Below, in pieces: positions 14,408 through 64,000 of a DNA stretch of 64,000 nucleotides. The stretch comes from Candidatus Poribacteria bacterium (GTDB lineage: Bacteria; Poribacteria; WGA-4E; WGA-3G). Below the pieces are notes generated by a model that was not told where the DNA came from, ran no database searches, and worked only from the letters and a program-made list of their open reading frames with translations. The stretch lies in the NCBI GenBank assembly GCA_965220325.1, contig OZ244821.1:1179428-1243427 (forward strand), in the 5' to 3' direction. The position numbers were made by a program, and so were the translations under genes. Positions within the stretch are counted from its first letter, which is position 1. Each line of letters starts with the position of its first letter.

Positions 14408-14414
14408 CCTTAGG

Positions 14415-14496
14415 AAAGATCGCGAGCGCAGCTCGCTCCTACAGGGGAGGAGTATTTACATAAACAAAGTGAATATGTAAAATTGAATGGTCCTGC
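14415..14496 (+). repeat. REP element copy
   Basis: AAAGATCGCGAGCGCAGCTCGCTCCTACAGGGGAGG...TTTACATAAACAAAGTGAATATGTAAA. Same family as 905-986. Confidence 0.6.
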
Positions 14497-14647
14497 TATG
14501 ATTCCGACTAAAACGCCACCAATAGGAATAAATGCCGAAATATCTTTTACGACATTCTGAACAGAGGGGTGTCCCTTCCAACCTTCTGCTATTTCATAAT
14601 CCACAGCGATGAAACCGTAGATGCTAACAAAAAACGAAATAAGGAAA

Positions 14648-18800: not shown

Positions 18801-19550
18801 TGTCGGTAGGGTTACCGGATCAAACATATCAACGATGGTGAACTTCTCTCTCATTGACGCGGAATTAGCTGTACCGTAGGTGGTCGTTCCATCAACAAGC
18901 CCGGTTGGGACAAACCCTGCCTCCGCATCCACGGTAACCCAGACATCTATCGGAAGATCAGAATCCTCACCAGTCTGATTACCAAAGAGGCTTAGACCTA
19001 CTCTAAATGTAGCGAAGAAAACCTTGCTTTGCACAGATTCGTCAACACCAGTAGTAGCGGTATCATCTGCTACGCCTGTAATCGCAACACTGACTGCACC
19101 GTCACCAGAAGTATCAGCATATAAATCCTTAGAAGGAGCTGATTGTGCTGCGGCAGTAACTGTAAGGTCAATGTCATCAGATTCTATACGAGAACCACCA
19201 CTTACAGCATCATATAGATGATCACTAAATGTGATCTTCGCTGTAAACACCCCAGCAACAGTACCATCCGCCGCAAATGCAATAGGAGTCGCGTCGGGAT
19301 CAACCACAAGCCTCACATTATTACCGTCTACGGTAGAACCCATAATATGATCCACCAATTCAATAGATTCGACGGTTGGTGCAGGCAGGTGCTGTGCATC
19401 GTGCGCAGCTTTAGTGAGCGTAGCACCACCAGTAGCGGCATGTTGAAGTCCAGCAGTCGTGCCATCAAGATCATGCGCCATGGCAGGTATCGCTGCAAGT
19501 GCGAAAATTAAAATTAAACTTGCTAAGGAAAATGTCAATCGATTTGACAT
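15822..19550 (-). CDS. large secreted protein with three lamin-tail (LTD) domains and duplicated Ig-like modules
   Basis: Signal peptide MSNRLTFSLASLILIFALAAIPAMA. LTD motifs (...EWIELRN..., ...EWIELFN..., ...EQWIELHN...). Duplicated roughly 100 aa module TATLTFNKPVMLEKADIIVTGGEAGTPMPATADATMDTMWTVEI. C-terminus is ...GKATTTWGELKSLQ. Confidence 0.75.
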   Translation of the reverse strand: MSNRLTFSLASLILIFALAAIPAMAHDLDGTTAGLQHAATGGATLTKAAHDAQHLPAPTVESIELVDHIMGSTVDGNNVRLVVDPDATPIAFAADGTVAGVFTAKITFSDHLYDAVSGGSRIESDDIDLTVTAAAQSAPSKDLYADTSGDGAVSVAITGVADDTATTGVDESVQSKVFFATFRVGLSLFGNQTGEDSDLPIDVWVTVDAEAGFVPTGLVDGTTTYGTANSASMREKFTIVDMFDPVTLPTVTITAPDATVDKKFTATLTFNKPVMLEKADIIVTGGEAGTPMPATADATMDTMWTVEISPVLDAASVVVDVAEKEATGAELEVTAESPPTVTILADSTATVDKKFTVTLNFSEKVELAMADIMVMGGTAGTPMPATADATMDTMWTVEITPTAGATSVEVSVSAMKATGMKETVTAKTPPAAAMLAAGKYLVVVRDKDSPPSFGNLSPDVVSWSEVSDEEEMPDLEELFDIGGTINVKVTGATRLQVVFSEVMWAVDQGQIDNRAAYLGEQWIELHNRTSDKNFAISAIKISSQARRPALAEETDRISNVVGAGDDWVLGKGQNGNSGATDGSGMVTGMVEFISMYRSNGGGPGHQSGHWTKSTELYATNHRGTPGQKERAGVQLVGTTNANRGPIIFNEIANHDNPDYEWIELRNVSGGNVNLKNYEVTMITGLDKDDDLIDFTTADRNVPAGGILLVVKKDPTGDPNHPLAAGWNFGVRNTWTVAKPGEANYVPGVNENSARYMVAHTFNELPDDHSNFVLVLRNRQDRNGSTGDNNIRDIAGYHPNLKVDDGTRFTNLWPLSNFPAPNRENNKLTVGTVQRRQHADIDGTKSKENNNNSDKVAFRDDDNGWSGIGYKRKAKPNAQNGGTPGHPHSAHARHNRFDATTRSSVIVSEIMIDQGPRNLPEWIELFNTSRTEAVSVQGWRITVTNHDMDSADGGVGSFDGDLTISFRLPNHVIPPRQSYLIVARSARNNTMLPKERIHSVNRRGSQLLLNTYGFQIKVEAWEKDSVYHAVDTIGNLGPAPENDRRSNGQSFVPISWMLPNTIGANSNRISLVRVSDTMGPIDGMDKNAWKFFDMSQQLGRTLDATSYGHTSDQGSPGHNAGGVLPVELSTFRPTRLDDGSVAIRWITESELDNAGFNILRSDTRDGQFTKLNTQLIAGQGTTSERTAYEFVDKTAKPNVVYYYQIQDVSIDGDIQVLKVTHLRGHVSPTGKATTTWGELKSLQ

Positions 19551-19867: not shown

Positions 19868-20650
19868 TTTACTAATATTATACAAAATTAATTGTATTAA
19901 GTCAAATTTATTTGCGTTTTTTTGAATAAAAAACCATTTTTATCGGCAATTACACAAAATATTATCAATTTAATTAACAGTTAGCCGAAATTTACGAAAC
20001 TATATGCGTAGTAAACCCATTTATATTTTGTTTAATCGTGAATTATGTTTATTTTTTACCAAATACATTAATATTATACGAAATAAATTGTATTAAGTCA
20101 AATTTATTTGTGTTTTTTTTGAATATAATCGGATATTTCTCGGTTTTTTGGGGGCGTTTGGGGGATTTGTATTGCGTTTGGGTGGTATTTTGGAGGTGGT
20201 ACAAATACAAAGACCACAGGCTAACGGTCTCCTATGCTACAAAGATTCGGAATTTTTTATTGTTGTTTAGAGAGATGGTACAAATACAAAGACCACAGGC
20301 TAACGGTCTCCTATGCTACAAAGATAGCGTATCGTAGGTTGGGTTGAACGGATGCGACCAAACCGCTGGGAAGCTATAGGTTTGCACGTAGAAGCCGGTT
20401 CGGTTGGGAAACCGAACCTACCAGGACGGGGTCGGACCAGGACGGGATCGGAAGTGTGGGTAGGTTTTTAACCCGAAACACGCGCTGGATGCACACTCTT
20501 TTCAGGGTTCCCTAGGCCTTGAAACGTGATGCACGGCGCGTGTTGGCGGGTGTTTTTGTTTTCTTTGGAGGAGAATAACATCTTCCTCACACTTTAATTA
20601 TACGCTAAAATTTAAAATTAAGTCAAATTTATTTTGTTTTTTGAAAAGAT
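19868..20650. repeat. three copies of an AT-rich repeat (ATTATACRAAATNAATTGTATTAAGTCAAATTTATTTGYGTTTTTTTGAATA) in a non-coding AT-rich tract
   Basis: Copies at about 19868-19935, 20066-20135 and 20590-20650. No credible ORF in 19560-20800. Confidence 0.5.
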
Positions 20651-21407: not shown

Positions 21408-21496
21408 GGATTTTTTTATCAAGATTTTGATGCAGGGCCATTCAATTCTCGATTTGGATATTGGTTTTGCTTTACAGAGGTGAACATTCTTACGGA

Positions 21497-21621
21497 AAAT
21501 CGCGAGCGTGAAGAAACACCGTTTTTGCTTGGGCGTTTCTTAAGCAAAAACACTCGCTCCTACCGGGGAATCATATTCACAGATATAAAGTGAATAGGTA
21601 CAATTGAATGGCCCTGATAGT
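21497..21621 (+). repeat. REP copy with 45-bp hairpin-loop insertion
   Basis: CGCGAGCG[TGAAGAAACACCGTTTTTGCTTGGGCGTTTCTTAAGCAAAAACAC]TCGCTCCTAC...TTCACAGATATAAAGTGAATAGGTACA. The insert is itself a hairpin (GTTTTTGCTT/AAGCAAAAAC). Confidence 0.6.
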
Positions 21622-21866
21622 ATATTACTAAACTTTGGACAATTTTAGGTGCGATACACATGTCGCCCCGCTGGGGCTTAGACCTTGGGAGACCTGACGT
21701 TTCTATAAACATACCGCCCCGCTGGGGCTGCTCTTTAGTTCATTCGTGTTTATTTTCTTGTGAGTTGGGTTTGCATGAAAAACTTTTAGAAAAATCGGAA
21801 ATACTTCGGAAATAGGTCATGAACTCAACAGAAATTGTCCAAACTATAGTAGTATATTATCAAAAA
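21618..21866 (+). mobile_element. MITE-like element (about 250 bp) with terminal inverted repeats ACTAAACTTTGGACAATTTT / AAATTGTCCAAACTATAG and a paired-hairpin core
   Basis: Homologous over its whole length to 23735-23972 in the same orientation. The core is GCCCC-GCT-GGGGC x2. Confidence 0.55.
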
Positions 21867-23508: not shown

Positions 23509-23734
23509 CTACTTCAGTCGATGGCTATTGTCTTTTCTAAACCTCTATACTATCTTTGATAAAGCGAATATGTAAAACTATAACGGATTTCAAAATTAAT
23601 GAGACCCTTTACAAGCGGACGAGGGAACCTCGCCCCTACAAGGGGTGGTCTCGGCAATCACTGAAATGTCTCTTTAATTATTGACTTTACTATAAATGCC
23701 CCTGATGGCCATGCTTTTTTTCGCTTGACTTTAC

Positions 23735-23972
23735 ATTATACTATAGTTTGGACAATTTTTGCGCAATAAACATGCCGCCCCTACGGGGCTTAGATTCGTG
23801 GCGGATGCCGTTTCTATAGACATATCGCCCCTACGGGGCTGCGTATCGGTGCATCGGCATTTATTTTTCTACGAGTTGCGTTTGTATCTGTAACACTCAG
23901 AAAATCCGAGAATGTGGTGGAAACAATGCCTGATCTGGATAGAAACTGTCCAAACTTTAGTACATTATATAT
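23735..23972 (+). mobile_element. second copy of the MITE-like element (TIRs TATAGTTTGGACAATTTTT / AAACTGTCCAAACTTTAG)
   Basis: Direct-orientation homolog of 21618-21866. Hairpins GCCCC-TAC-GGGGC x2. Confidence 0.55.
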
Positions 23973-24093
23973 AAGGCATGATTTATAGTAGGTGTTTTCA
24001 ATTTTGTAGATGCGTTTAAACACATCTATTTCTCCATAATATCATGTCGTTCAAATAGAATCAACGCTCTTTCAAGTTATACCCTTTTGATTT

Positions 24094-44118: not shown

Positions 44119-44406
44119 GTGGATACTATAGCGCAAGTGCTTCAACAGCACGTGCCAAATACAGGAACACACGGGATAATAGTTGTAATTGATGGACTGG
44201 ATAAGCAAGAAAAACAACAGATCGCCAAACGATTAAAGCGGGCAGGGGTGATGTATAAAAAGGTACGTGGAGCCAAAGATGAAGGGAGCGCGTGGATAAG
44301 ATTAGCCGATGCCATTGCGGGATTTAGTTGGGATGTTTACAAAAACAAACCATATACGCAAAGCCTACATGCTGACATGCCATCGGGACCTTTTATTCAA
44401 ATATAA
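44119..44406 (+). CDS. hypothetical small protein, possibly a gene remnant
   Basis: GTG-initiated 95 aa ORF in a 1.2 kb low-coding tract. A weak NYN/LabA-like pattern (GIIVVIDGLD) is unconfirmed. Confidence 0.2.
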   Translation: MDTIAQVLQQHVPNTGTHGIIVVIDGLDKQEKQQIAKRLKRAGVMYKKVRGAKDEGSAWIRLADAIAGFSWDVYKNKPYTQSLHADMPSGPFIQI

Positions 44407-44854
44407 AAAAAAGCTAGAGTGTCTGGCTCTAGCAACCCAACATAGACATACCACAGCGGCAGAGGTCACGGTTGGCTGGCCCTAGTTTTCCCGGGGAAAA
44501 CACCGTCCATACGGCACGTATTCGGGCAAAGTACACATTCGACATATATTATAACGAAAAAAAAACAGATTGTCAAGTTTTTTGTCTAATTTTCAATTAT
44601 GGTAAAATCTATCGTTATTCAGGCACCGTGGTAGGCGCGGTTTTGCGGCGTATTCGCCCAAATGCGACCGGCATTCAAACTGCGCCTACTAGGAAATTGT
44701 GTAAGTCCCACTTCATACAGTTTGCGTGATGGTTATCTGTCAACATTTCTAATCCTGCAAATCCTGATTCGGGTAATTAACGCGTTCCGCTTCCATCCTT
44801 CCGATCCAAATTTTTGATGGAATATGGATACGTGCCCCAAAACATAATCCTTTG

Positions 44855-52954: not shown

Positions 52955-54166
52955 CTAAAGTGATTCAAGGAAGGCAATAACGGCTTGTTGTTTCTCTACA
53001 GACAGGTTGAAGAACTTTTCCTTAGCATTCTGTGCCTCGCCACCGTGGGCTCGAATCGCACCTTCAAGTGTTGTTGCGCGACCGTCATGAAGGAAAAACG
53101 GTGTACCCCCGAGAAATTCCGCAACCAAACGTGTGCCCCAAAGTGGAGCAGTCCGCCATTCTGTTCCTGTCGCTTCACCATCAGGACGGTTATCTGCTAA
53201 TTCTTCACCCATATCATGCAAAAGGAAATCGGAGTAAACGTGGACATCTACCCTGTTCAAAGCATCAATAGGAGACGGTCCCGTCTGCATCGTCGGGACG
53301 TGGCAGGAGGCACACCCAATCCGGTTGAAAATCGCATCGCCCCTTTTGACTTCCCCCGTTATCTCACCACGTGGCGGCGGAGAAAGCAACCGCATGAAAA
53401 CGACGATATCCATAACCGTTGATCTTTCAATCTCTGGGTCAGGAACAGTGTCCCCAGTATTGGAAGGTTCCTCTTGTAGAAAACTGCTGGTAACACCCAT
53501 ATCTTGTTGGAATGCCATTGCGGTCTGTTGTACCAACGATGAAACGGATGCCTTGCGTCCAAACCTTCCAAGCTGCTCACCCGGTCCGCCGCCAATCTCC
53601 GTAGTTGGTACAAAATCGGCGGCAGCGACCCAGTGCGGTCTGCCAGAAATACCGTCGCCATCGGCATCGTCTTCATCGGCGTAGGATAATATGGTTTCAA
53701 CCGATATATTTTCGATAAGTCCCATTCCGAAAACGGGGGGCGGGAGTCGTGTGGATTTATCCACACCCACCGGAAGTGTCTCGTAAGACACACCTGGGAT
53801 GACTTTGTCTTGAAGCTGGGGACCTCCCATATCAAGCATCAGATTATGTCCCATACTAAATCGGATGAGCGATAGGTCCGGCATACCACGCCCATTTCCA
53901 GGGTGGCAACTTACACACGCCGCCTGATTAAAAATGGGACCTAAACCTTCTTCTACTGTGAAGACTTTCATGAATGCTTCCTCACCTCGTGTGAATGTGG
54001 CACTCAGGTCAGAAGGCAACATTTCAAAAGGGGTCTCAAAATTACCAAGCGCAGGTTCAACATTATCGGCTTTGGGTATTATTAATTTAGTCCTGCCGTC
54101 ACAACCATTCATAGATACGAGAACAATCAAAACAATAAAAAAAATGCAAGATATTTCCAATTTCAA
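52955..54166 (-). CDS. di-heme c-type cytochrome, DUF1111 family (putative thiol oxidoreductase/peroxidase)
   Basis: Two CxxCH motifs (AACVSCH, GCASCH). C-terminal FLHDGRATTLEGAIRAHGGEA is typical of DUF1111. Confidence 0.6.
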   Translation of the reverse strand: MKLEISCIFFIVLIVLVSMNGCDGRTKLIIPKADNVEPALGNFETPFEMLPSDLSATFTRGEEAFMKVFTVEEGLGPIFNQAACVSCHPGNGRGMPDLSLIRFSMGHNLMLDMGGPQLQDKVIPGVSYETLPVGVDKSTRLPPPVFGMGLIENISVETILSYADEDDADGDGISGRPHWVAAADFVPTTEIGGGPGEQLGRFGRKASVSSLVQQTAMAFQQDMGVTSSFLQEEPSNTGDTVPDPEIERSTVMDIVVFMRLLSPPPRGEITGEVKRGDAIFNRIGCASCHVPTMQTGPSPIDALNRVDVHVYSDFLLHDMGEELADNRPDGEATGTEWRTAPLWGTRLVAEFLGGTPFFLHDGRATTLEGAIRAHGGEAQNAKEKFFNLSVEKQQAVIAFLESL

Positions 54167-54504: not shown

Positions 54505-55842
54505 TCATTTGTCATTGACATTCAGCGGTATCGGCTCCGTTTGTTTCATCGGTTTTGATAGCAGATGTGCCGGTGGCGATTCGCCCGTCAAAGTCTTGAG
54601 AAATTCGACCAAATCGTTTTGCTCCGCTTCACTGAGATTCAGCGGTGCTATCGGCAACGCAGCCATCCTAGGAAACGCCACAGTAGAACCTCCAGCATTC
54701 TTGAACGCAATCACAGACAAAAGCGTCGGAAACTCTCCCGTATGAAAATACGGTGCCGTCACGGCAACGTTGCGGAGGGGCGGTGTCCGGAACGCACCCT
54801 GGTCTTCAGACTTCGCTGCCATAACACCTAACATCTCTTCGGACCCCGACCGCCAATCGCTATAGATACCCGCACTGTTAAACATATTATTGAGAAGTTT
54901 CGGAATACCTTGGAAACGCCCCTTATCCTCTACAGGCCCCGATGGCACGCCGATATTATGGAAACCGTTGTCCGTAAACCTCGGTGTATTGTGGCAATCA
55001 ACGCATCCACCTTTGCCAATGAATAGCTTTAAGCCCCGCTTGGCTTCCGGGGAAATCGCAGACGCATCGCCTGCGACATACCTGTCAAACGGCGCATCCC
55101 GACTAATCAGAAGCCGTTGGTAGGCTTCAAAGGCTTTACCGATATTCGAGAAGATGGTGTTTATAGCAATCTGGTCTGCTTCGGACATGCCATCAAATGC
55201 CGGATCTCCGGGTTTGCCGTCATCGGGGAAGCGGGCTGTATCTTCGAGTTCAGGGAGCGGAGCAAAAACTGCTTCATATTCCGTTTTATAGTGTTGATGG
55301 ATAACATAGGCATACTGTGCACGGGTTCCCGCCATTTCATCTTCACCTTCAAGCGCAAATAACGCTTGGGCCCACATCGTTTCTGCCCTGCCGTCCCAAA
55401 GCTGCCATTCGTTATACGCAGCATTGAGCACAGTCGGTGTGTTTCTTGTCCCTCGTCCGGTCGCTAATGACGTTGATTCTATATCCGCAAAGGCATAAAA
55501 CGGCGAGTGGCAGGTCGAACATGCTATTGTGCTATGTTTGGAGAATCGAAAATCAAAGAAAAACGCCTGTCCCAACAGTGCCGCAGCTGGGTCATCAGCA
55601 AGACGATTCGTCGGATTTGCCGGCGGGACGGCAGGTAAAGGTGATAACCCCATGATAATGTCCCACTCAGCTTCGCTAAAGAAGTCGGGCGTTTCTGTCG
55701 GATGTTCAAGCGTAGTAAGTGTTTCCCCGACGCGTTCCCTATCACATCCTATGAAAAATAGGACAACATTACATAGAAAAAACATGAAAACCATTGAAAA
55801 TCTGTTGAAATCAGATACCATATATTTATTTCCTCCGCTCAC
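54505..55842 (-). CDS. di-heme cytochrome c peroxidase (CCP/MauG family)
   Basis: CSTCHSP and CVDCHNTPRFTDNGFHNIGVP heme motifs. RTPPLRNVAVTAPYFHTGEFPTL conserved CCP region. Confidence 0.8.
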   Translation of the reverse strand: MSGGNKYMVSDFNRFSMVFMFFLCNVVLFFIGCDRERVGETLTTLEHPTETPDFFSEAEWDIIMGLSPLPAVPPANPTNRLADDPAAALLGQAFFFDFRFSKHSTIACSTCHSPFYAFADIESTSLATGRGTRNTPTVLNAAYNEWQLWDGRAETMWAQALFALEGEDEMAGTRAQYAYVIHQHYKTEYEAVFAPLPELEDTARFPDDGKPGDPAFDGMSEADQIAINTIFSNIGKAFEAYQRLLISRDAPFDRYVAGDASAISPEAKRGLKLFIGKGGCVDCHNTPRFTDNGFHNIGVPSGPVEDKGRFQGIPKLLNNMFNSAGIYSDWRSGSEEMLGVMAAKSEDQGAFRTPPLRNVAVTAPYFHTGEFPTLLSVIAFKNAGGSTVAFPRMAALPIAPLNLSEAEQNDLVEFLKTLTGESPPAHLLSKPMKQTEPIPLNVNDK

Positions 55843-56139
55843 ATAATTTATTATTGAGCACTGTGTATCGTTGCCTTTAAGGTAACTGTAACAGATAACG
55901 GTAACTGTAACAGATAACGTGAATTTGATAAATACTTAGGGCAGCCGCATTTGCGCTTAAAGTCCTCCTGATAAGGGGATTTAGGGGGTGTTTTTGCTGG
56001 GGTGTTTCTTAAATCACTAAAACTGCCCTTCTTTTGCCCAATTTGCGCCTGTTCTGAATTCTAAGTTCGCGTTAACAGGTAAATGGGTTTTATGATGATA
56101 GAAGGTTTCCATCACAGCAAAAACACAATTCAGTTAATA

Positions 56140-56262
56140 TAATGATGTTAGGACAATTTTAAAAATTTATGTATTTTACAATAAATTGTCCCAACATCAG
56201 TAAATTATACTCTGCTTCAATTGATAAGTCAAATTAAATTTTCAGAAAATTACTTAACTTGT
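56140..56262 (-). promoter_or_regulatory. duplicated promoter-operator module: consensus sigma70 promoter (TTGACT-N17-TATAAT, minus strand) immediately followed by a 55-bp palindrome GATGTTGGGACAAT-N-ATTGTCCTAACATC
   Basis: Minus-strand reading TTGACTTATCAATTGAAGCAGAGTATAAT, with -10 at about 56204-56209 and -35 at about 56227-56232. About 90% identical to 60893-61022. Upstream of the CCP gene. Confidence 0.55.
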
Positions 56263-56283
56263 TAGGCTGTGAGCTTGGAAAGC

Positions 56284-59200
56284 CTATTTCCGTATCAACA
56301 GTTTCCGGGTCGCAAAATAATTGCCCGCTTTGAGGGTGTAGAAATACACGCCTGTCGCAACCTTTTCACCGAGCTGATTCCGTCCATCCCAATGCGCCGC
56401 CTTGCTCCGACTTTGGTAGATACCCGCAGGCTGGTGCCCCAATCGCAACTTCCGCACGATCCGCCCCCGCACATCGTAGATCGTTAGCGTAACTTCTGCC
56501 GGTTTGGCGAGCTGATACGGTATCCACGTTTCAGGGTTGAACGGGTTCGGGAAGTTAGTCAAGAGTGCAGTATTATCAGGAATCACAAGAGATGTTTCAA
56601 GGGATGGCGCAGCACCTACGACATCCGTGACATTGATGGTAACGGTAATACTATCAGTCCCACCCTTCCCATCAGAGACAGCGACTTTGACCGTATAAGT
56701 GCTCTTCGTTTCAGCATCAAGTTCAGCGTTAGTTTGGAGTTGACCGGATGATTTAACAATACGAAACGAATCCGCATCCGTGCCACCGAGATGATAAGTG
56801 AGTGTATCCCCGGTATCCTCATCTGTGGCAGCGACCACACTGCCGATGTTTGTACCGGAAGCGGTGTTTTCTGCTACAGAACGGGTTGTGCTATCACCAT
56901 CGCTAAACACAGGGGCGTTATTATTTGCTACTGCAGGAATTGTAATATCTAAGGTTAAACCTGGATGACCTTCAATTACCTCAATTGCTGCCTTGAGTCG
57001 ACGGAGGGGACCATAATCCAAAATCTGATTCCCCGACAGACCAAGTTCTGTGAGTGCGGTCAAGTTTTCAAGCGCAGAAACATCGCTTATGGAATTGTTA
57101 TTCAGAGCGAGTTCTGTGAGTGCGGTCAAGTTTTCAAGGGCGGATATATCACTGATCCAATTGTTAGACAGAATGAGTCGTTTCAGTGAAGTCAAGTTTT
57201 CAAGGGCGGATATATCGCTTATGGGATTCCAATGCAGATTGAGGTCTGTGAGTGCGGTCAAGTTTTTAAGGGCGGATATATCGCTTATGGAATTCCAATC
57301 CATCTTGAGGTTTGTGAGTGCGGTCAAGTTTTTAAGGGCGGATATACTGCTTATGGAATTACGAGACAGATCGATCCAATTCAGTGCGGTCAAGTTTTTA
57401 AGGGCGGATATATCGCTTATGGAATTGTAACTCAGAAAGAGCTGTTTCAGTGAAGTCAAGTTTTTAAGTGTGGATATATCGCTTATGGAATTATTATGCA
57501 GATATAACCATTCCAGTGCGGTCAAGTTTTTAAGGGCGGATATATCGCTTATGGGATTGAAACCCAGAAAGAGCCATTTCAGTGAAGTCAAGTTTTTAAG
57601 GGCGGATATATCGCTTATGGAATTGTGTTTCAGAACGAGGTTTGTCAGTGAAGTAAATCCATCAAAATCACCAACCTTTAGTGCCGTTATTCTTCTGTAG
57701 TCAATGCTAAGGGAAGTTATTGCAGCAAGATGGGCTGCAGTCACATCGGCGGCATTATTAACATTCGGTACCGCAGCAACAATTGCATCTCGCACCTGTC
57801 GTGTGCGTTCATTGACCGGAGTAAATTCGGATACATCCGTCACATTTATGGTAACGGCGATGCTATCACTCCCGCCGCTGCCATCAGAGACAGACACTGA
57901 CACGGAATAAGACGACTTGCTTTCATAATCCAAGGCGGCACTCGTCTGCAGTTGCCCAGAGGTCGAAACAATACGAAACGAACTTGCATCCGTGCCCCCC
58001 AAAGTATACGTGAGTGTATCGCCGCTATCCGTATCTGTCGCAGCAATAGCACTGCCGATGTTTCTGCCGGAGGGAGTGTTCTCTGCGATGGAGCGCGTCG
58101 TCTCGGTGCCATCGTTGAAGACAGGTGCGTTGTTAGGAGCCGCACTCACTTGAATTGAGAACGTCAGCGTGGCTGAAAGTGTTCCATCACTCGCCGTATA
58201 GGTATAGGTCGCTGAAGCTGTCTCAGTTGTAGGTGTTCCAGAAAGCGTGCGCGTTGAAGCCGTAAAGGTCAACCCGGCAGGGAGTGCTGGTGTCACCGTG
58301 TATGTGATCGTATTGCCAGCATCAACATCGGTTGCTTCAGGCAAGGCCACCGACGTGATTGCTGTTCCTGCGGTGGCAGAAATATTACTGATGCTTGCTC
58401 CCGCACTGAACGCTGGTGCCTCGTTGACGTTCGTGACATTAATCGTGACGGCGATGCTATCACTCCCGCCGTTTTTATCAGAAACAGATACTGACACAGA
58501 ATAAGACGACTTGCTTTCGTAGTTTAGGGCAGCACTAGTTCGGAGTTGCCCGGATGTGCCGACAATACTGAACAAGGAGGCATCTGCGCCACCTAAAGTA
58601 TAGGTGAGTGTGTCGCTGGTATCCGCATCTGTCGCAGCAACGGGACTTCCGATGTTTGTACCTGAACGGGTGTTCTCAGCAACAGACCGAGTAGTGCTGG
58701 TGCCATCGTTGAATGCGGGGGCGCGGTTCTCATTCACATCTGTAATATTGATGGTGACGAGGACGCTATTGACAAGACCCCCGCTATCCGTCGCGCGGAC
58801 AGCCAGATTGTTGTAAGTGCGCTTCGTTTCATAGTCAAGAGCCGCGCGGGTTTGCAGCTGCCCTGTCCTTGCGTCAATACGAAATACGTTTTTATCGCCC
58901 CGCTGAAGCGAATAGGTCAGTGTATCGCCACTATCGGGGTCTGTGGCCTGGAAGGGCCTGCCGATGTTTCTGCCGGAAGCCGTGTTCTCTGGGACGGAGA
59001 GTGTGACCCTTCCAAAAGTGCTGAAACTCGGTTTCTCATTGACATCTGTAACACTGATCGTGACGGCGATGCTATCTGTGCCGCCATTGCCGTCGGAGAC
59101 AGAAACCGTGACAGCGTAGGAGTTGTCTGCTTCATGGTTCAGGGCAACATTGGTTTGCAGCTGCCCGGAGGTGGAAACAATGCGAAACGAGGACGCATCC

Positions 59201-60672
59201 GTGCCACCAAGCGTATACGTTAGTGTGTCGCCGGTATCCACATCTGTCGCAGCAATAGCACTCCCTATGTTTGTACCTAAAGCGGTGTTCTCAGCAACAG
59301 ACCGCGTCGTGCTAGTGCCTTCACTGAATGCGGGAGCACGATTCTCATTGACATCTGCAACGTTGACGGTGACGGCGATACTATCACTCCCACCATTACC
59401 ATCAGAAACAGACACCGTCACGGAATAAGATGATTTCGTTTCATAATCTAACGCAGCACTCGTCTGCAGCTGTCCTGATGTAGAAACAATGCTAAATGAA
59501 GACGCATCCGTACCACCAAGCGTATACGTTAGTGTGTCGCCGGTATCCGCATCTGTCGCAGCAATAGCACTCCCGATGTTTGTGCCAGATGCCGCGTTCT
59601 CCGCAACAGACCGCGTCGTGCTGGTGCCGCTTGTGAACACGGGTGCGCGGTTCTCACTGACATCCGTGACCTTGATGGTGACGAGGACGCTATTGACAAG
59701 ACCCCCGCTATCCGTCGCGCGGACGGCCAGATTGTTGTAAGTGCGCTTCGTTTCATAGTCAAGTGCCGCGTGGGTTCGCAGCTGCCCTGTATTTGCGTCA
59801 ATACGAAACGCTTTCTTATCGCCCCGCTGCAGCGAATAGGTCAGTGTATCCCCGCTATCGGGGTCTGTTGCTTGGAAGGGAGCACCGATATTTGTGCCGG
59901 AAGCCGTGTCCTCTTCGACGGAGAGTGTGACCCTACCCGAAATGTTGAAACTCGGTTTCTCATTGACATCTGTAACATTGATCGTGACGGCGATGCTATC
60001 TGTGGCGCCATTACTATCGGAGACAGAAATCGATACCGAGTAGGACGACTTGCTTTCATAGTTTAGGGCAGCACTGGTTCGGAGTTGGCCCGATGTGCTG
60101 ACAATACTGAACGATGCCGCATCCGTGCCACCCAAAGTATAGGTGAGTGTGTCGCCGGTATCCGCATCTGTTGCAGCAATAGGATTCCCGATGTTTCTGC
60201 CAGAAGCCGTGTTCTCAGCAACAGATCGCGTGGCACTGTCGCCATCGGTGAAGGTCGGAGCGTTGTTTCCAGCCGTTTCATCAACATCCGTGACATTGAT
60301 TGTGACGCTAATGACACGTCTACCCCCATTGCCATCGTCGACAAAAATGGCAAACGAGTAGACGCTCTTCGTTTCATAGTCCAAGGGTGCTTTGGTGCGG
60401 ATTTGACCGGTATTGCTGTCGAGAGTAAATGCTGTTCCATCCAGCCACCCCTTAGTATAGGTGAGTGTATCGTTATCTGCATCCGTTGCAGCGACCGGTG
60501 CGCCGATGTTTACCCCGGCCGGTGTGTTCTCTGCAATAGAGCGTATTGTGCGGTTACCGTCTATGAATACAGGTGCACTGTTCTCATCGGCATAACCTAA
60601 TATATGTGTGCAAAAAATTATAAAAGCGGTTAGGAAAATTGATACGATATACTTTTTGTTTTTAAATAGCAA
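56284..60672 (-). CDS. giant secreted adhesin: about 12 cadherin-like repeats, a central leucine-rich-repeat block, and a T9SS-type C-terminal sorting domain
   Basis: Signal peptide. Repeated APVF.DG..TTRSVAEN...NIG..IAATD.D.GDTLTY.LGG.D...F.I....GQL.T..ALDYE modules. LRRs (LTSLK.LFL..N.ISDISALKNLTAL...). The C-terminus NFPNPFNPETWIPYQLAKPAEVTLTIYDVRGRIVRKL...WDGRNQLGEKVATGVYFYTLKAGNYFATRKLLIRK matches the Por/T9SS CTD. Confidence 0.8.
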   Translation of the reverse strand: MLFKNKKYIVSIFLTAFIIFCTHILGYADENSAPVFIDGNRTIRSIAENTPAGVNIGAPVAATDADNDTLTYTKGWLDGTAFTLDSNTGQIRTKAPLDYETKSVYSFAIFVDDGNGGRRVISVTINVTDVDETAGNNAPTFTDGDSATRSVAENTASGRNIGNPIAATDADTGDTLTYTLGGTDAASFSIVSTSGQLRTSAALNYESKSSYSVSISVSDSNGATDSIAVTINVTDVNEKPSFNISGRVTLSVEEDTASGTNIGAPFQATDPDSGDTLTYSLQRGDKKAFRIDANTGQLRTHAALDYETKRTYNNLAVRATDSGGLVNSVLVTIKVTDVSENRAPVFTSGTSTTRSVAENAASGTNIGSAIAATDADTGDTLTYTLGGTDASSFSIVSTSGQLQTSAALDYETKSSYSVTVSVSDGNGGSDSIAVTVNVADVNENRAPAFSEGTSTTRSVAENTALGTNIGSAIAATDVDTGDTLTYTLGGTDASSFRIVSTSGQLQTNVALNHEADNSYAVTVSVSDGNGGTDSIAVTISVTDVNEKPSFSTFGRVTLSVPENTASGRNIGRPFQATDPDSGDTLTYSLQRGDKNVFRIDARTGQLQTRAALDYETKRTYNNLAVRATDSGGLVNSVLVTINITDVNENRAPAFNDGTSTTRSVAENTRSGTNIGSPVAATDADTSDTLTYTLGGADASLFSIVGTSGQLRTSAALNYESKSSYSVSVSVSDKNGGSDSIAVTINVTNVNEAPAFSAGASISNISATAGTAITSVALPEATDVDAGNTITYTVTPALPAGLTFTASTRTLSGTPTTETASATYTYTASDGTLSATLTFSIQVSAAPNNAPVFNDGTETTRSIAENTPSGRNIGSAIAATDTDSGDTLTYTLGGTDASSFRIVSTSGQLQTSAALDYESKSSYSVSVSVSDGSGGSDSIAVTINVTDVSEFTPVNERTRQVRDAIVAAVPNVNNAADVTAAHLAAITSLSIDYRRITALKVGDFDGFTSLTNLVLKHNSISDISALKNLTSLKWLFLGFNPISDISALKNLTALEWLYLHNNSISDISTLKNLTSLKQLFLSYNSISDISALKNLTALNWIDLSRNSISSISALKNLTALTNLKMDWNSISDISALKNLTALTDLNLHWNPISDISALENLTSLKRLILSNNWISDISALENLTALTELALNNNSISDVSALENLTALTELGLSGNQILDYGPLRRLKAAIEVIEGHPGLTLDITIPAVANNNAPVFSDGDSTTRSVAENTASGTNIGSVVAATDEDTGDTLTYHLGGTDADSFRIVKSSGQLQTNAELDAETKSTYTVKVAVSDGKGGTDSITVTINVTDVVGAAPSLETSLVIPDNTALLTNFPNPFNPETWIPYQLAKPAEVTLTIYDVRGRIVRKLRLGHQPAGIYQSRSKAAHWDGRNQLGEKVATGVYFYTLKAGNYFATRKLLIRK

Positions 60673-60892
60673 TATCTAAGCTCCTTTATCGGTATTCAAT
60701 GAAGGTTAGCAATCCCAGTCCTTATCTGCTTTCAAGAGCGGTTAAATTGACATTCAGCGGTATCCGATCCGGTTGTTTTGATTGAAATCAGATACTATAG
60801 ATATACTTATATCCTTTTTTAGATAAAAATGAATATAGTACTTTATGATGCGATAAATAGAGGATATCTATCACAGGAAAAGGACACAACTT

Positions 60893-61022
60893 AGTTAACG
60901 TAAATGATGTTGGGACAGTTTCAAAAATTTATGTATTTTACAACAAATTGACCCAACATCAGTAAATTATACTTTGCTTCAATTGATAAGTCAAATTAAA
61001 TTTTTAGAAAACTACCTAATTC
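60893..61022 (-). promoter_or_regulatory. second copy of the promoter-operator module, upstream of the giant adhesin gene
   Basis: Minus-strand TTGACTTATCAATTGAAGCAAAGTATAAT, then GATGTTGGGTCAAT...ACTGTCCCAACATC. The predicted TSS is about 285 nt upstream of the start codon. Confidence 0.55.
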
Positions 61023-61179
61023 GCCTAAGAAACGTCTAGTAAATTCAGAACGTCATATCAGACTTCACAACAAAAAATTTCTACCAAAATAGGTATACGT
61101 CTCTATCTTTTCTCAGGACAATTTAGTTTTCGGTTTCGATCTTGGTTTTGGTTGACAGATGTTAACGTTTAGATGCCAG

Positions 61180-61326
61180 GTCGCGAGCGTGAAGAAATCC
61201 GCAGAAATACCCAGGCAATACGCAGAAATACCCAAGCAAATACACCCCAAGCAAATACACTCGCTCCTACCGGGGAAGCGTATTCACATAGATAAAGTGA
61301 ATATGTAAAACTAAACACCCCTGCTA
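61180..61326 (+). repeat. REP copy with a 70-bp loop insertion made of CAGAAATACCCARGCAAATAC repeats
   Basis: GTCGCGAGCG[insert]CACTCGCTCCTACCGGGGAAGCGTATTCACATAGATAAAGTGAATATGTAAAACTAAACACCCCTG. Confidence 0.6.
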
Positions 61327-61446
61327 TCTTTTCTCTGAAAACCTTGAATTAGAGAGAGATTTTTGATATAATAATAAATTAACAGTAGTCGTGTTCGTTC
61401 GTATAAGAATAGATTCTACAATCCAGTTTAGGAGGCTCCGAATAGC

Positions 61447-64000
61447 AATGAATTCTCTGAAAGACCTTATTCAACGCTGTCATGAACGGCATGAAAAGCC
61501 TCTTCGACAACGCAAGACAGTGTCAACACCTGCGATGTATATAAAGGATCGCCCACGCCAGTACGCGGTTTACTGTGCACACCGCTTCCCTGTCATGCTT
61601 CATGATTTAGAACAAGCGGATATCTCTCTCATGCCTATGGGACGCGCACCTTGGCATGATCGGGGGCCCGGGGATTTTAGGGGCAAGCGGTTCTTGAAAC
61701 GCCAAGGCATAACGGATTGGAGCGCTAAACGATGGGATGCTTCGTGGGGTATTCAATTGTATACTGGTATCCCTTCGGAACGTAATGGTGCGAGATGGCA
61801 CGATCTACACTTCAAGTATGAGGCGATCTGTGCTGCACCAGAGGCAGTTGTCGCTTGTATTGAGGCACTTGTTAATATTGTTAATAACCCGCTTTTAACA
61901 TTAGGGAAGTCCGGCGGCATCCGCTTCTCCTGTAGAGTCCAAGATTATCTCCATCCCAATACCGAAGCAGCGAAATTATATATCTATAAAGACACCCTGA
62001 TACCGGAAAATGTGTATCAACGCGATGTATATCTCGAAATATTTGGTCAAGAAGGGCACACACGCTGGGATGCCCGCTATGAGATACTCATCGGGAATCT
62101 GTTAACGCCACCGGTCATCGCCAAAGAAGTCCTTTTCGCGCCTATTGACGCCCTCCGTGTGAAACTCCATGAACCTGCGCCTGATAGCACAGAAGCGAAG
62201 CAGATTGTCACCCCTGTACCGCTATCGCTCGGTTCAGAGAGCCTTGATCTCGCAAGAGAGGCGTTCTTGCAACGTGGATTCTCTTATGTCAGACAAGAGG
62301 ACGGCCTTTACTACTGGACGCTCCCTGAAGGCACTATTGGCAGCGAAGATGTCCTACTCTCGGAAAGCGATGGGGTGGTGTGGGTCAGCGCAGCTACGCC
62401 TGACATGGGGCTGCCAACGCAATCCACGCCAATCACAGAGGTTTGGGATGATACAGGTATTCTGTCCCCACTATCTGCAACAAGTACCTCTACACCTGTG
62501 AAAGTGAAACAGGTACGAAAAGATGAACTCAGCCCGTTGGCGATAAAACGTCCACCACCGGTATTAGGACAACACGGTAACACCGAAGAGGATGAAATAC
62601 TCCAAAGGGATGTGTTTCGGATAGAAAGCATCTTTGACGGAGGCGTACGTATTCTTGGGGTTATTACAGGGATAGGTCCTTGGGATAAAGAGTCAGAAGA
62701 CTCATATTTCCTTAGTGGCGGTGTAATTTCCGTAAATACGCCGGAAATCAAATTCGCTGAAAGCACTGAAAAATACTTTCGAGAGCAGAATATACCATCG
62801 GTGGCTTACTGGAAGCCTCGAACACACCGATGGGAACACGTGAAAGACATACCCACTAATGTCCGGATGAAAACACCTTTTCAACATGGAAATGTCTGTG
62901 AAGACTCAGAACGATGTTCAGCACTTGAGGAAAAAGGTGGAAATCCGAATGAAAGTATCTGTCCACAGTGCTCCGTCTATTCAGAGTGTCAGCAGCGTGG
63001 ATACTTATCCCAATTTGCCGCATTTCGACAGGCAAAAGTCCAAATGTTGACGATTCCGCAACTGTTTTTTGATCCCCAATATACTGAATTGGTGGAACAG
63101 ATCCTCGAAAGAGACGATGAAACCGAACGACTTTGTGTGCTCAACCAACAGCGCACACATAAACTATTCCTCGAATGTAAACTCTCAAAAAACATTATGG
63201 AGGAATGGGCTGCGAACTGGCAGAACTGTGCCTTAGGAAACTTCGCAAAAACATTGCTGAGTGCTTTGGAAATTGAAGGCAAATCTTACGACGATGCCGT
63301 CAAAGGCGTACGCGCAGTGATGCAGACTTTTGAATGGCAAGAGGACACACTTATCCAGCAGATGTGTCAAGTTAGAGTGCGGGGTAGGACGGTGGCGAGC
63401 GAGATCGTTGACACTGATACCGGAAAGACGTTGGCACGCTTTAGCATCAAATTTGAAGGTGGTGCCTCCGCTTACATCCCCTTAAACAAAAACGCAGCGG
63501 ATAAACTCAACGCAAAAGGACTTCCTGTCTTTCTGCAATCCGTTCCGCTTAATGAAGACATAAAAGTTGTAATGTCGATGGCGCAAGCGATTTCATTAGG
63601 GATATTGGATACAAAATCAGTTGAAAGCATTCAAGCGTTTCCAACCGTCTGTCGCGAGCAAAGTTGGACATTTTGGCATCAACTTAAGCGTTTCTTTGCA
63701 CATTACACGCGAGACTCAGACGCACCTATTCGATGGGATGGTGAAGTCCTGCAGTTTTGGGTGCCCCCTGTGCTCCATACAAGCGTCAAACGCCTTTTGT
63801 TGGTATCGTCAGTATTCTCAGAGCAACATCTCCACAGAGTGTTTCCCAATGAAAACCTTGAGACCTACTGGACCGAACCCATACCGTGGAGTCAGGGAAA
63901 CCGCGTCTTTCAGGTTCGCACAGGGGTCTATCCATCAGAAGCCATTCTCGACTACTACAACTGGAGTAATGTAAGTGTCTCTGAAACAGGTCAACGTTTT
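61447..64000 (+). CDS. large uncharacterised protein (>850 aa, 3' end outside the window) with a Cys-cluster zinc-ribbon-like motif
   Basis: ATG 61447, preceded by AGGAGG. Open to the window end. Contains C-x6-C...C-x2-C-x5-C (CEDSERCSALEEKGGNPNESICPQCSVYSEC). The N-terminal 170 aa has a weak primase-polymerase-like pattern (GIQLYTGIPSE...HDLHFKYE...LGKSGGIRFSCRV) lacking catalytic DxD/H. No Walker motifs. Confidence 0.5.

What the first reader, a model, noticed from the sequence alone, without database searches (positions are those of the whole stretch)
56140..61022. Shared promoter-operator module, related to the MITE termini, duplicated upstream of a cytochrome c peroxidase and a giant T9SS adhesin
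- **Duplicated module.** A roughly 120 bp sequence at 56140-56262 is about 90% identical to 60893-61022. Each copy lies 220-350 bp upstream of a minus-strand gene, CCP 54505-55842 and adhesin 56284-60672.
- **Promoter and palindrome.** Read on the minus strand, each copy has a perfect-spacing sigma70 promoter, TTGACT-N17-TATAAT. It is followed directly by a 55-bp palindrome, GATGTTGGGACAAT-(AT-rich 27)-ATTGTCCCAACATC, sitting at or just after the predicted TSS.
- **Relation to the MITE.** The palindrome arms share the GGACAATTTT/AAATTGTCC core with the terminal inverted repeats of the MITE-like element that flanks fic.
- **Interpretation.** This looks like a miniature member of the same mobile family that has delivered an outward-reading promoter plus a potential repressor operator to two unrelated genes. 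That would place a peroxide-detoxifying enzyme and a surface adhesin under one regulator.
Basis: partly seen in the sequence, partly recalled or inferred. Interest (0 to 1): 0.7.

Follow-up and report, generated by a model that had tools for sequence, protein, structure and literature searches.

The report
Duplicated peroxidase promoter-leader now heading an adhesin
The two repeats are copies of the native promoter and hairpin-containing leader of a Poribacteria cytochrome c peroxidase gene, and the upstream copy now drives a giant adhesin because its own peroxidase gene has shrunk to a stub, which is gene duplication and decay rather than a mobile promoter element.

Summary
The repeat is real. 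Window 56089-56262 and 60842-61024 match at 85% over 178 nt (E 5e-52), with an ungapped core of 92% over 117 nt. Each copy, read on the minus strand, has TTGACT-N17-TATAAT followed at once by a 17-bp stem-loop.

It is not a dispersed mobile cassette. The same module sits at the same syntenic place, upstream of the peroxidase (CCP) orthologue, in at least six related Candidatus Poribacteria assemblies. In one of them it runs straight into the CCP ribosome-binding site. It is therefore the native CCP promoter plus 5' leader.

Copy B keeps the ancestral upstream flank. It is followed by a CCP ghost: the ribosome-binding site and first codons, fused to the last ~33 nt of the gene and part of its 3' flank. 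The adhesin gene comes next. The adhesin has therefore inherited the promoter of a decayed CCP paralogue. A second genome carries the same B-type module in front of the orthologous adhesin.

The stem keeps pairing through G-C to A-U changes. Its mismatches in CCP-linked copies are G.U on the sense strand, which favours an RNA 5'-terminal hairpin over a DNA operator.

The resemblance to MITE termini is real but statistically marginal. The finding is ordinary in kind and of modest interest.

The parts
56089..56262 (-). Module copy A: promoter plus the first ~110 nt of the leader of the intact CCP gene
   Evidence: blastn and nhmmer against copy B and against orthologous loci; 94.5% identical to the CCP-upstream module of L020
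56227..56232 (-). -35 hexamer TTGACT of copy A, preceded by AT-rich AAAATTTAAT
   Evidence: invariant in the six close module-bearing sequences
56204..56209 (-). -10 hexamer TATAAT of copy A, 17-nt spacer; predicted transcription start at about 56196-56198
   Evidence: the start site is inferred from spacing and is not mapped
56143..56199 (-). Hairpin 1 of copy A: 17-bp stem with one G.U and an AT-rich ~23-25-nt loop, starting at the predicted 5' end of the transcript
   Evidence: fold -22.2 kcal/mol sense vs -18.3 antisense; whole leader z = -5.4; pair counts
56094..56117 (-). Hairpin 2 of copy A (CTGTGATGGAAACCTTCTATCATC)
   Evidence: conserved block CTGTGATAGAnnCCCTCTAT in winB, L026, L028, L029, L030, L035; 100% of cells paired; folds in every sequence
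55822..56088 (-). Remainder of the CCP leader in copy A, with lineage-specific insertions and a 19-bp tandem duplication, ending in the conserved block AAAGGCAACGATACACAGTGCTCAATAATAAATTATGTGAGCGGAGGAAATAAATAT before ATG
   Evidence: comparison with L020, L028, L029
54505..55821 (-). Intact di-haem cytochrome c peroxidase gene with a lipoprotein-type signal
   Evidence: Pfam CCP_MauG E 3e-37; orthologues of 438 aa at 82-95% identity, some named from Candidatus Poribacteria
60842..61024 (-). Module copy B: the same promoter and leader, adhesin-type variant
   Evidence: 91.5% identical to the module upstream of the orthologous adhesin in L035, sharing three derived substitutions
60989..60994 (-). 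-35 hexamer TTGACT of copy B
60966..60971 (-). -10 hexamer TATAAT of copy B; predicted transcription start at about 60958-60960
60905..60961 (-). Hairpin 1 of copy B, weakened by a U.U and an A.C mismatch that L035 also carries
   Evidence: (-18.1 kcal/mol)
60852..60876 (-). Hairpin 2 of copy B
60782..60818 (-). CCP ghost, 5' part: ribosome-binding site and first codons (AAAGGATATAAGTATATctatAGTATCTGATTTCAA), ATG destroyed
   Evidence: 14-nt exact match GTATCTGATTTCAA to the CCP start of the window, L020 and L026 (E 5e-4 in the directed search); 81% over 37 nt to L029
60746..60779 (-). CCP ghost, 3' part: last ~33 nt of the CCP coding sequence (..ATACCGCTGAATGTCAAT)
   Evidence: 91% over 33 nt to window 54514-54546, E 4e-7, and to the CCP 3' ends of L020 and L031
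60713..60729 (-). Probable remnant of the CCP 3' flank (GCAGATAAGGACTGGGA vs GAAGTTAAGCACTCGGA in L020)
   Evidence: alignment A4; weak, read by eye
56284..60672 (-). Cadherin/LRR adhesin gene with a FlgD_ig / T9SS-like C-terminal domain; TTG start preceded by AAAGGAG
   Evidence: 100% match P0123 on a 6.11-Mb contig; its 3' 1.8 kb is 91.5% identical to the L035 adhesin
61025..61113 (-). Ancestral upstream flank (U) shared with the CCP loci of L020 and L028; it continues at 61324-61447 beyond a MITE insertion
   Evidence: alignment A3; blastn 84% over 214 nt to L020
61448..64000 (+). Divergent gene of about 1080 aa with no Pfam domain; it runs off the window and is the syntenic neighbour of the CCP module in relatives
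   Evidence: 92-94% nt identity to L028 and L020; gene tables

Best explanation
**What it is.** The ~170-bp module is the native sigma-70-type promoter and the structured first ~110 nt of the 5' leader of the di-haem cytochrome c peroxidase (CCP) gene of a clade of Candidatus Poribacteria.

**Why there are two copies.** A whole CCP gene unit (promoter, leader, gene, 3' flank) exists twice in this genome, on either side of a giant cadherin/LRR adhesin gene.
- The downstream unit (copy A) is intact.
- In the upstream unit (copy B) nearly all of the CCP coding sequence has been deleted, leaving its first ~20 nt fused to its last ~33 nt.
- The promoter and leader of copy B therefore now read directly into the adhesin gene. 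This is promoter capture by duplication and decay.

**How it works (inferred).**
- RNA polymerase starts 6-8 nt after TATAAT, which is at the first base of a 17-bp stem-loop.
- Both mRNAs therefore begin with a base-paired 5' end, followed by a second short hairpin.
- A base-paired 5' end of this kind is known to slow 5'-end-dependent decay. It could also serve as an RNase III or protein-binding site.
- Both genes thus receive the same transcriptional signal and the same leader.
- No terminator separates the adhesin from copy A, so CCP may also be reached by read-through.

**Shown:** the homology, synteny, ghost remnants, promoter consensus and conserved pairing.

**Inferred:** the start site, transcription, and the effect of the hairpin.
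For: **The module is the CCP promoter-leader.**
- It is found upstream of the CCP orthologue in L020, L026, L028, L029, L030 (cut by the contig end) and L036 (cut). Diverged versions occur in L025 and L022.
- All of these share the divergent ~1080-aa neighbour gene.
- In L029 hairpin 2 abuts the ribosome-binding site and ATG of CCP, so no other promoter space exists there.

**Copy B heads a decayed CCP unit.**
- It carries the ancestral upstream flank.
- It is followed by the CCP ribosome-binding site and first codons, then the CCP 3' end (33 nt, 91%, E 4e-7).
- Copy A's homology starts only ~30 nt upstream of its -35 hexamer, 22 nt after the adhesin stop codon.

**The unit is older than this genome.**
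- L035, a different genome, has a B-type module with the same three derived substitutions. It lies upstream of an adhesin whose 3' 1.8 kb is 91.5% identical.

**Promoter.** 11 of 12 consensus positions with a 17-nt spacer. This promoter type is 200-fold enriched in the window.

**Hairpin.**
- 97.3% of cells are paired, and RNAalifold predicts the same stem.
- G-C becomes A-U at one pair in L026 and L029.
- The sense strand folds 4-6 kcal/mol better than the antisense strand in four of six copies.
- z-scores range from -2.7 to -6.2.
- L022 keeps a perfect hairpin of different sequence after the same promoter.

**No terminator-like site** lies between the adhesin stop and copy A.

**Background on 5' stem-loops.** Emory, Bouvet and Belasco 1992, as cited in PMC3997798.
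Against: - No transcription start or expression data exist for any of these uncultured organisms.
- Covariation is weak. Only 2 pairs change on both sides, the shuffle controls are not significant (27/500 and 44/500), and the RNAalifold covariation term is -0.04.
- The G.U excess rests on about 7-9 events that I inferred by eye, not on a phylogenetic test. Over all cells of hairpin 1 in seven close copies the count is 6 G.U to 4 A.C, which is not significant.
- The order of events (duplication, adhesin insertion, deletion) cannot be resolved. The locus is mosaic: window vs L028 is 92% identical in the neighbour gene but 82% in CCP.
- Between the window and L035, homology ends sharply at the module edges. 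That pattern also fits a cassette that moves or converts.
- Only about 320 kb of related DNA could be searched, not whole genomes.
Confidence: 0.75

Rival explanations
1. First reader's reading. The module, or its 55-85-bp palindrome, is a miniature member of the MITE family seen at 21615-21862. It transposed in front of both genes and brought a promoter with it.
For: - GGACAATTT is enriched 8-fold and lies in MITE termini and the module arms.
- MITE-2 termini read TATAwT, then 11 nt, then TGGACAATTT. The module has the same spacing: TATAAT-TTACTGATGTT-GGGACAATTT, with 22 of 27 positions identical to one terminus (by eye).
- The inverted repeat of copy A reaches into the -10 hexamer.
- The module halves are the best non-MITE full-length hits of a terminus model.
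- Homology between the window and L035 ends sharply at the module edges.
- MITEs are demonstrably active in these leaders.
- Correia elements in Neisseria show that such elements can create promoters and RNase III sites (PMC2649163).
Against: - The terminus model scores the module at E = 0.66, no better than chance hits in the same search.
- The module is fixed at one syntenic site in all relatives that share the neighbour gene. No empty site was seen.
- Both window copies, and L035 through its 21-nt U fragment, carry CCP-locus flanks.
- There is no target-site duplication.
- There is no copy in any non-CCP-derived context.
- Collection scans found only one further locus, which is also of the CCP type.
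Confidence: 0.1
2. The palindrome is a DNA operator. A dimeric or tetrameric repressor, for example a peroxide- or oxygen-responsive one, binds across the start site and co-regulates CCP and the adhesin.
For: - Dyad symmetry overlaps the -10 hexamer and the +1 position.
- The arm sequence is conserved across the clade, and symmetric changes in both arms are also expected for an operator.
- The loop length is fixed at 25 nt in the aligned close copies, with a partly conserved AAAATACATAAATT.
- CCP genes in other bacteria are regulated by redox-sensing factors (general knowledge).
Against: - The half-sites are about 40 bp apart centre to centre, which is unusual for one operator.
- In CCP-linked copies the single-sided changes give G.U on the sense strand, not A.C. 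DNA binding does not predict this.
- L022 has a different palindrome at the same place.
- No DNA-binding gene is linked to the module in any locus. The only nearby factor is an ECF-sigma fusion two genes away.
Confidence: 0.12
3. The palindrome and second hairpin have no function of their own. They are inherited baggage, perhaps an old MITE scar, between a real promoter and the genes.
For: - Covariation is not significant.
- Module identity (79-82% for L026 and L029 in the -35 to hairpin-1 stretch) is close to the gene-level identity of those genomes (82-85%).
- Leaders tolerate MITE insertions, and L020 has lost hairpin 2.
- The adhesin-type copy keeps two stem mismatches.
Against: - The hairpin is retained in every CCP-linked copy, while the flanks are riddled with insertions.
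- It sits exactly at the predicted 5' end.
- A different hairpin is kept at the same place in L022.
- The sense-strand folding is favoured over the antisense.
Confidence: 0.15

Closest known systems
5'-terminal stabilising stem-loops of bacterial mRNAs (E. coli ompA and papA leaders)
   Same: A stem-loop begins at or within a base or two of the predicted transcript 5' end, directly after a strong sigma-70 promoter and far upstream of the ribosome-binding site. A leader module of this kind can be moved to another gene.
   Different: The start site and half-life are not measured here. The stem is longer (17 bp), the loop is large, AT-rich and partly conserved, and a second conserved hairpin follows. 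There is no sequence relationship.
Correia repeat enclosed elements (CREE) of Neisseria
   Same: A short inverted-repeat element whose ends contain promoter hexamers. When transcribed it forms a hairpin in the 5' leader that can be cut or protected by RNase III (PMC2649163). The arms here resemble the termini of a resident MITE family, and the repeat reaches into the -10 hexamer.
   Different: CREE are present in hundreds of dispersed copies with TA duplications and presence/absence polymorphism. This module is fixed at one locus and spread only with CCP-unit flanks. Its -10 hexamer reads into the palindrome, not outward.
Promoter capture after gene duplication and pseudogenisation
   Same: A duplicated gene unit decays, and its promoter and leader become the expression signals of the next gene downstream.
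   Different: Nothing unusual. The case is notable only for the clean 5'+3' ghost and for the unrelated functions of the two genes, in an uncultured sponge-associated phylum.
Bacterial di-haem cytochrome c peroxidase regulation (for example E. coli ccp under FNR and OxyR; general knowledge)
   Same: A periplasmic peroxidase gene with a dedicated upstream control region.
   Different: No FNR-type (TTGAT-N4-ATCAA) or other recognisable box is present. TTGACTTATCAA at the -35 hexamer has the wrong spacing, and I assessed it only by eye.

Membership tests
Sigma-70-type promoter | -35 and -10 hexamers close to consensus with a 16-18-nt spacer | tested here: met
   TTGACT-17-TATAAT, 11 of 12 positions, in both copies. 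The hexamers are invariant in six related loci.
Sigma-70-type promoter | Transcription start 6-8 nt downstream of the -10 hexamer, shown experimentally | not testable with these tools
   No transcript data are available.
5'-terminal stabilising stem-loop | The stem begins within about 0-2 nt of the transcript 5' end | tested here: inconclusive
   The stem starts 5-6 nt after TATAAT, which is at the predicted +1. The start site is not mapped.
5'-terminal stabilising stem-loop | Pairing maintained in evolution on the RNA-sense strand | tested here: met
   97.3% of cells are paired and two pairs show double changes. The sense fold is better than the antisense fold in 4 of 6 copies. Significance is weak.
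5'-terminal stabilising stem-loop | Removing the stem shortens mRNA half-life | not testable with these tools
   This needs an experiment.
MITE (the family at 21615-21862 and 23733-23975) | Significant sequence homology to the family | tested here: inconclusive
   The nhmmer terminus model scores the module at E 0.66 with full-length alignment. blastn gives 79% over 29 nt at E 1.9. The shared 9-mer is enriched.
MITE (the family at 21615-21862 and 23733-23975) | Discrete ends with terminal inverted repeats and a target-site duplication | tested here: not met
   The homology of the copies has different ends and includes CCP-locus flanks. No duplication flanks the palindrome. By contrast, the MITE at 61114-61323 has an 11-bp duplication and an empty site in relatives.
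MITE (the family at 21615-21862 and 23733-23975) | Dispersed copies at unrelated sites, with presence/absence polymorphism | tested here: not met
   All copies are at CCP loci or at a CCP-derived adhesin unit. Whole genomes could not be scanned.
Palindromic repressor operator | Closely spaced dyad half-sites overlapping the promoter | tested here: inconclusive
   The palindrome overlaps the -10 hexamer and +1, but the arms are separated by 23-25 nt.
Palindromic repressor operator | A cognate DNA-binding regulator, and further operators elsewhere (a regulon) | tested here: not met
   No regulator is linked to the module in any locus. No further arm-pair match was found in the window, the loci or JGI metagenomes.
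Known cis-regulatory RNA or sRNA family (Rfam 15) | A match at or near a family's gathering score | tested here: not met
   There are no gathering-level hits in the window. The only sub-threshold hits are to eukaryotic miRNA hairpins.
Leaderless small-peptide gene (MLGQFIVKYINF) | Start, frame and stop conserved among copies | tested here: not met
   ATG is ATA in L026 and L029, and L028 has a premature stop.

The most novel reading that the evidence does not exclude
Hairpin 1, together with the -10 hexamer, is a domesticated, internally deleted copy of the resident MITE family (TATAwT-N11-TGGACAATTT termini). If so, a transposon end supplies both the -10 box and a 5'-terminal RNA hairpin. This MITE-derived promoter-leader has been reused to couple a peroxide-detoxifying enzyme and a host-adhesion protein in a sponge-symbiont lineage. 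That would be a Correia-like system in Poribacteria.
Probability: 0.2. Interest if true: 0.5.

Novelty: new member of a known kind. Interest (0 to 1): 0.3.

Why it matters
- **Candidate cis-element.** It gives a concrete promoter and 5'-leader element for an uncultured phylum in which no promoter has been mapped to my knowledge. Consensus sigma-70 promoters are clearly used there.
- **Rewiring by ordinary means.** A giant surface adhesin has come under the expression signals of a peroxidase gene through duplication and decay. This predicts co-expression of oxidative-stress defence and adhesion, which metatranscriptomes could test.
- **A caution for repeat-based scans.** A short repeat upstream of two genes need not be a mobile element. 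Orthologous loci settled the question here.

Tried and rejected
- **Leaderless 12-aa ORF** (MLGQF[I/V]VKYINF, starting 7 nt after the -10 hexamer). The three A/B substitutions looked like coding ones, but ATG is lost in L026 and L029 and L028 has an early stop. Rejected.
- **Known RNA families.** No Rfam hits at gathering level, and only miRNA-hairpin noise at E <= 1.
- **Genome-contig scan** with a 19-mer from the -35 region. It gave 19 single chance hits in unrelated taxa, so the source genome is not among the species representatives. That scan is now spent.
- **Metagenome-contig scans.** The A-type arm-pair pattern gave 0 hits. The promoter pattern gave 1 hit, L036, another CCP-type locus cut by the contig end.
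- **Viral-contig scan.** 0 hits.
- **Exact-protein look-ups** of window proteins (MR_MLE, and adhesin P0123) failed, so the source contig itself could not be extended.
- **nhmmer profile of the module** against the window plus all Poribacteria loci. No additional copies, including upstream of the second adhesin in L035 and other secreted proteins.
- **MITE-terminus HMM.** The module is the best non-MITE full-length hit, but at E 0.66. Homology is left open.
- **Reconstructing the order of events.** I tried Campbell-type integration against tandem duplication plus deletion. This was abandoned because the locus is mosaic among relatives.
- **FNR-like reading of TTGACTTATCAA.** The spacing is wrong and the downstream CAATTG is not conserved. 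This was assessed by eye only.
Full report
**1.

- The two stretches align at 84.8% over 178 nt (56089-56257 vs 60842-61019, E 5e-52). An ungapped core is 92% identical (56141-56257 vs 60903-61019). There is no third copy in the window.
- On the minus strand each copy has TTGACT, 17 nt, TATAAT (56232-56204 and 60994-60966). These are the two best promoter-like sites in the region. TTGAC-N18-TATAAT occurs six times in the window against 0.03 expected, so this promoter type is really used by this organism.
- An inverted repeat starts 5-6 nt after the -10 hexamer, with arms 56183-56199 / 56143-56159 and 60945-60961 / 60905-60921. It is imperfect in both copies.
  - The first is a CCP_MauG di-haem peroxidase. 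Its true start is probably ATG 55821.
  - The second is a 1462-aa cadherin/LRR protein with a FlgD_ig / weak Por_Secre_tail C-terminus.

**2. Organism and relatives.**

- CCP homologues at 62-95% identity include proteins that NCBI names as Candidatus Poribacteria.
- The adhesin has a 100% match on a 6.11-Mb contig, but that record could not be retrieved.
- I fetched the loci of nine CCP orthologues.

**3. The module is the native CCP promoter and leader.**

- In L020 (CCP 95% aa), L026, L028 and L029 the same module lies upstream of CCP, with nhmmer E-values of 1e-38 to 1e-53. L030 and L036 carry it too, but are cut by contig ends.
- All of these loci share the divergent ~1080-aa neighbour gene. 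In the window that gene starts at 61448 and runs off the end.
- In L029 the module runs directly into AAGGAAAAGGAAATAAGTCTATG, the CCP ribosome-binding site and start codon. There the module is therefore the whole control region.
- In other genomes MITEs and other insertions have landed between the module and the start codon.
- L025 and L022 have the same AATTTGACT-N17-TATAAT promoter with a diverged (L025) or different (L022) hairpin after it.
- Two orthologues in a different genomic context (L031, L033) lack the module.

**4. Why there are two copies here.**

- *Copy B keeps the ancestral upstream flank.* It is 84% identical over 214 nt to L020. The flank is interrupted only by a 210-bp MITE at 61114-61323, which has an 11-bp target duplication and an empty site in L020 and L028.
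- *Copy B is followed by a CCP ghost.*
  - After hairpin 2 comes AAAGGATATAAGTATATctatAGTATCTGATTTCAA. This is the CCP ribosome-binding site and first codons with the ATG destroyed, and it includes a 14-nt exact match to the CCP start.
  - Next come 33 nt that are 91% identical to the last codons of CCP (E 4e-7).
  - A probable piece of the CCP 3' flank follows.
  - Copy B therefore heads a CCP gene from which nearly the whole coding sequence has been deleted. The adhesin gene follows about 75 nt later.
- *Copy A starts abruptly.* Its homology begins only ~30 nt upstream of its -35 hexamer, 22 nt after the adhesin stop codon. It continues into a long leader and 3' flank like those of L020.
- *The resulting structure.* It reads: flank, [promoter-leader-CCP ghost], adhesin, [promoter-leader-CCP]. 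The adhesin has inherited the signals of the decayed unit.
- *The order of events is unresolved.* The locus is mosaic among relatives. For example, window vs L028 is 92% identical in the neighbour gene but 82% in CCP.

**5. The arrangement is older than this genome.**

- The closest adhesin homologue, P0184, lies in another genome, L035. Its 3' 1.8 kb is 91.5% identical to the window gene, so the two genes are orthologous.
- Upstream of it is a module 91.5% identical to copy B (130 of 142 positions). It shares B's three derived substitutions, GGGTCAAT and AAACTGTCCC.
- L035 also keeps a 21-nt piece of the far-upstream CCP flank, ATGTATTATTATATCAAAAAT. Otherwise its surroundings differ: TatA, CMD and TPR genes, and no CCP.
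- Outside the module the two leaders are no more alike than shuffled sequence. At 8.5% background divergence this means rearrangement, not saturation.
- This sharp edge is the best remaining argument for a cassette-like behaviour.

**6. What the palindrome is.**

- *Structure.* As RNA, the sense strand folds into a 17-bp stem that starts at the predicted +1, followed by a second hairpin (CTGTGATAGAnnCCCTCTAT). Whole-leader z-scores range from -2.7 to -6.2.
- *Conservation of pairing.*
  - Across seven sequences, 97.3% of cells form standard pairs.
  - One pair switches from G-C to A-U in two lineages.
  - RNAalifold finds the same stem.
- *Strand asymmetry.*
  - In CCP-linked copies the single-sided changes give G.U or U.G on the sense strand. 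These fall at pairs 5-57, 6-56, 9-53, 11-51, 13-49, 14-48, 15-47, 93-109 and 96-106.
  - The antisense strand would have A.C at those positions.
  - Accordingly the sense strand folds 4-6 kcal/mol better in four of six copies.
  - This favours an RNA element over a DNA-only palindrome.
- *Limits of this evidence.*
  - The covariation term is negligible.
  - The shuffle controls are not significant.
  - A cell count over hairpin 1 in the seven close copies is 6 G.U to 4 A.C.
  - The adhesin-type copies carry a U.U and an A.C mismatch.
- *Alternatives I tested and rejected.*
  - A 12-codon leaderless ORF that looked conserved between A, B and L020 is broken in L026, L028 and L029.
  - No Rfam family matches.
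- *Most likely role.* I take it to be a 5'-terminal stem-loop of the kind that protects mRNAs from 5'-end-dependent decay (Emory et al. 1992, cited in PMC3997798). An RNase III site, as in Correia elements (PMC2649163), is an alternative. An operator is possible but disfavoured.

**7. Relation to MITEs.**

- GGACAATTT is enriched (8 occurrences vs 0.93 expected).
- The eight termini of the MITE-2 family read TATAwT, then an 11-nt stretch (kTACTAwAGyTT), then TGGACAATTT. This is the same layout as TATAAT-TTACTGATGTT-GGGACAATTT in the module.
- The inverted repeat of copy A extends into the -10 hexamer.
- A profile of the termini aligns end to end with the module, but only at E 0.66, which is no better than chance hits in that search.
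- An ancient MITE origin of the hairpin and the -10 hexamer is therefore possible but unproven.
- Present-day mobility is contradicted by synteny, by the flanks the copies carry, and by the lack of a target duplication or of unrelated insertion sites.

**8. Verdict.**

The two genes do share a promoter-leader, and the MITE-like arms are real. Delivery by a mobile element and a repressor operator are not supported.
- The thing is a duplicated native promoter-leader, with promoter capture by an adhesin after decay of a CCP paralogue.
- It is a new example of known processes. The leader hairpins are an uncatalogued, candidate cis-element of a Poribacteria clade.
- Interest is modest.

Noticed in passing
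window 44400-44576 (-): A perfect TTGACA-N17-TATAAT promoter (44576-44548) is followed by about 140 nt of GC-richer sequence with no ORF. It ends in CTAGAG-CCAGACA-CTCTAG plus T8, a terminator-like site. This is a candidate small RNA gene. It has no Rfam match even at E <= 1, and its fold z-score is only -1.56.
   Followed up: partly
window 19877-19905 and 20073-20101 (-): Two near-identical copies of AAAAAAACrCAAATAAATTTGACTTAATACAATTwATTTyGTATAAT lie 196 bp apart, both upstream of the 1242-aa ORF 15822-19550. This is a second tandem promoter duplication in the same window.
   Followed up: no
window 61114-61323: A 210-bp MITE (termini CAGGACAATTTAGTTTT / AAAACTAAACACCCCTG) is flanked by an 11-bp direct repeat CTATCTTTTCT (61103-61113, 61324-61334). 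The site is empty in L020 and L028. Other copies lie at about 840-987, 14353-14498 and 21433-21619. Related short elements are inserted in the CCP leaders of L026 and L028.
   Followed up: partly
window 21615-21862 and 23733-23975; L025 ~3830-4495 and ~9380-9900: A second MITE family has 31-nt terminal inverted repeats that contain a TATAAT-like hexamer 11 nt outside a TGGACAATTT core. Internally it has the repeats ATATCGCCCCTACGGGGC. One copy sits inside the CCP leader of L025.
   Followed up: partly
window 55881-55918: The 19-bp unit GGTAACTGTAACAGATAAC (plus strand) is tandemly duplicated in the CCP leader. It is single in L020, and a related GTTATCTGTTACAG occurs in L028 and L030.
   Followed up: no
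window ~55938-56029: A 92-bp stretch in the copy-A leader is bounded by the inverted AGGGCAG / CTGCCCT. It is absent from the L020, L028 and L029 leaders and is probably another small palindromic insertion.
   Followed up: no
window 52955-54166 (-): A second di-haem protein (Pfam DHOR, E 9e-61) lies between CCP and the MR_MLE gene. None of the syntenic relatives has a gene there, so it is another lineage-specific insertion at this locus.
   Followed up: no
window vs L020, L025, L026, L028, L029: The locus is mosaic. Window vs L028 is 91.6% nt identical in the ~1080-aa neighbour gene but 81.8% in CCP. L025 is 87.4% in CCP but 66.6% in the neighbour gene. This implies recombination or exchange of CCP alleles among Poribacteria lineages.
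   Followed up: partly
L035 3722-3753: A 14-15-nt tandem duplication covers the -35 region (ATTTGATTTATCAA / ATTTGACTTATCAA) in the adhesin-linked module of the second genome. L036 has a similar 10-nt duplication (TTTACTGATA twice) just after the -10 hexamer.
   Followed up: no
L030 2090-3301: An IS605-type OrfB / Cas12f-like TnpB gene lies immediately downstream of the CCP orthologue in one relative.
   Followed up: no
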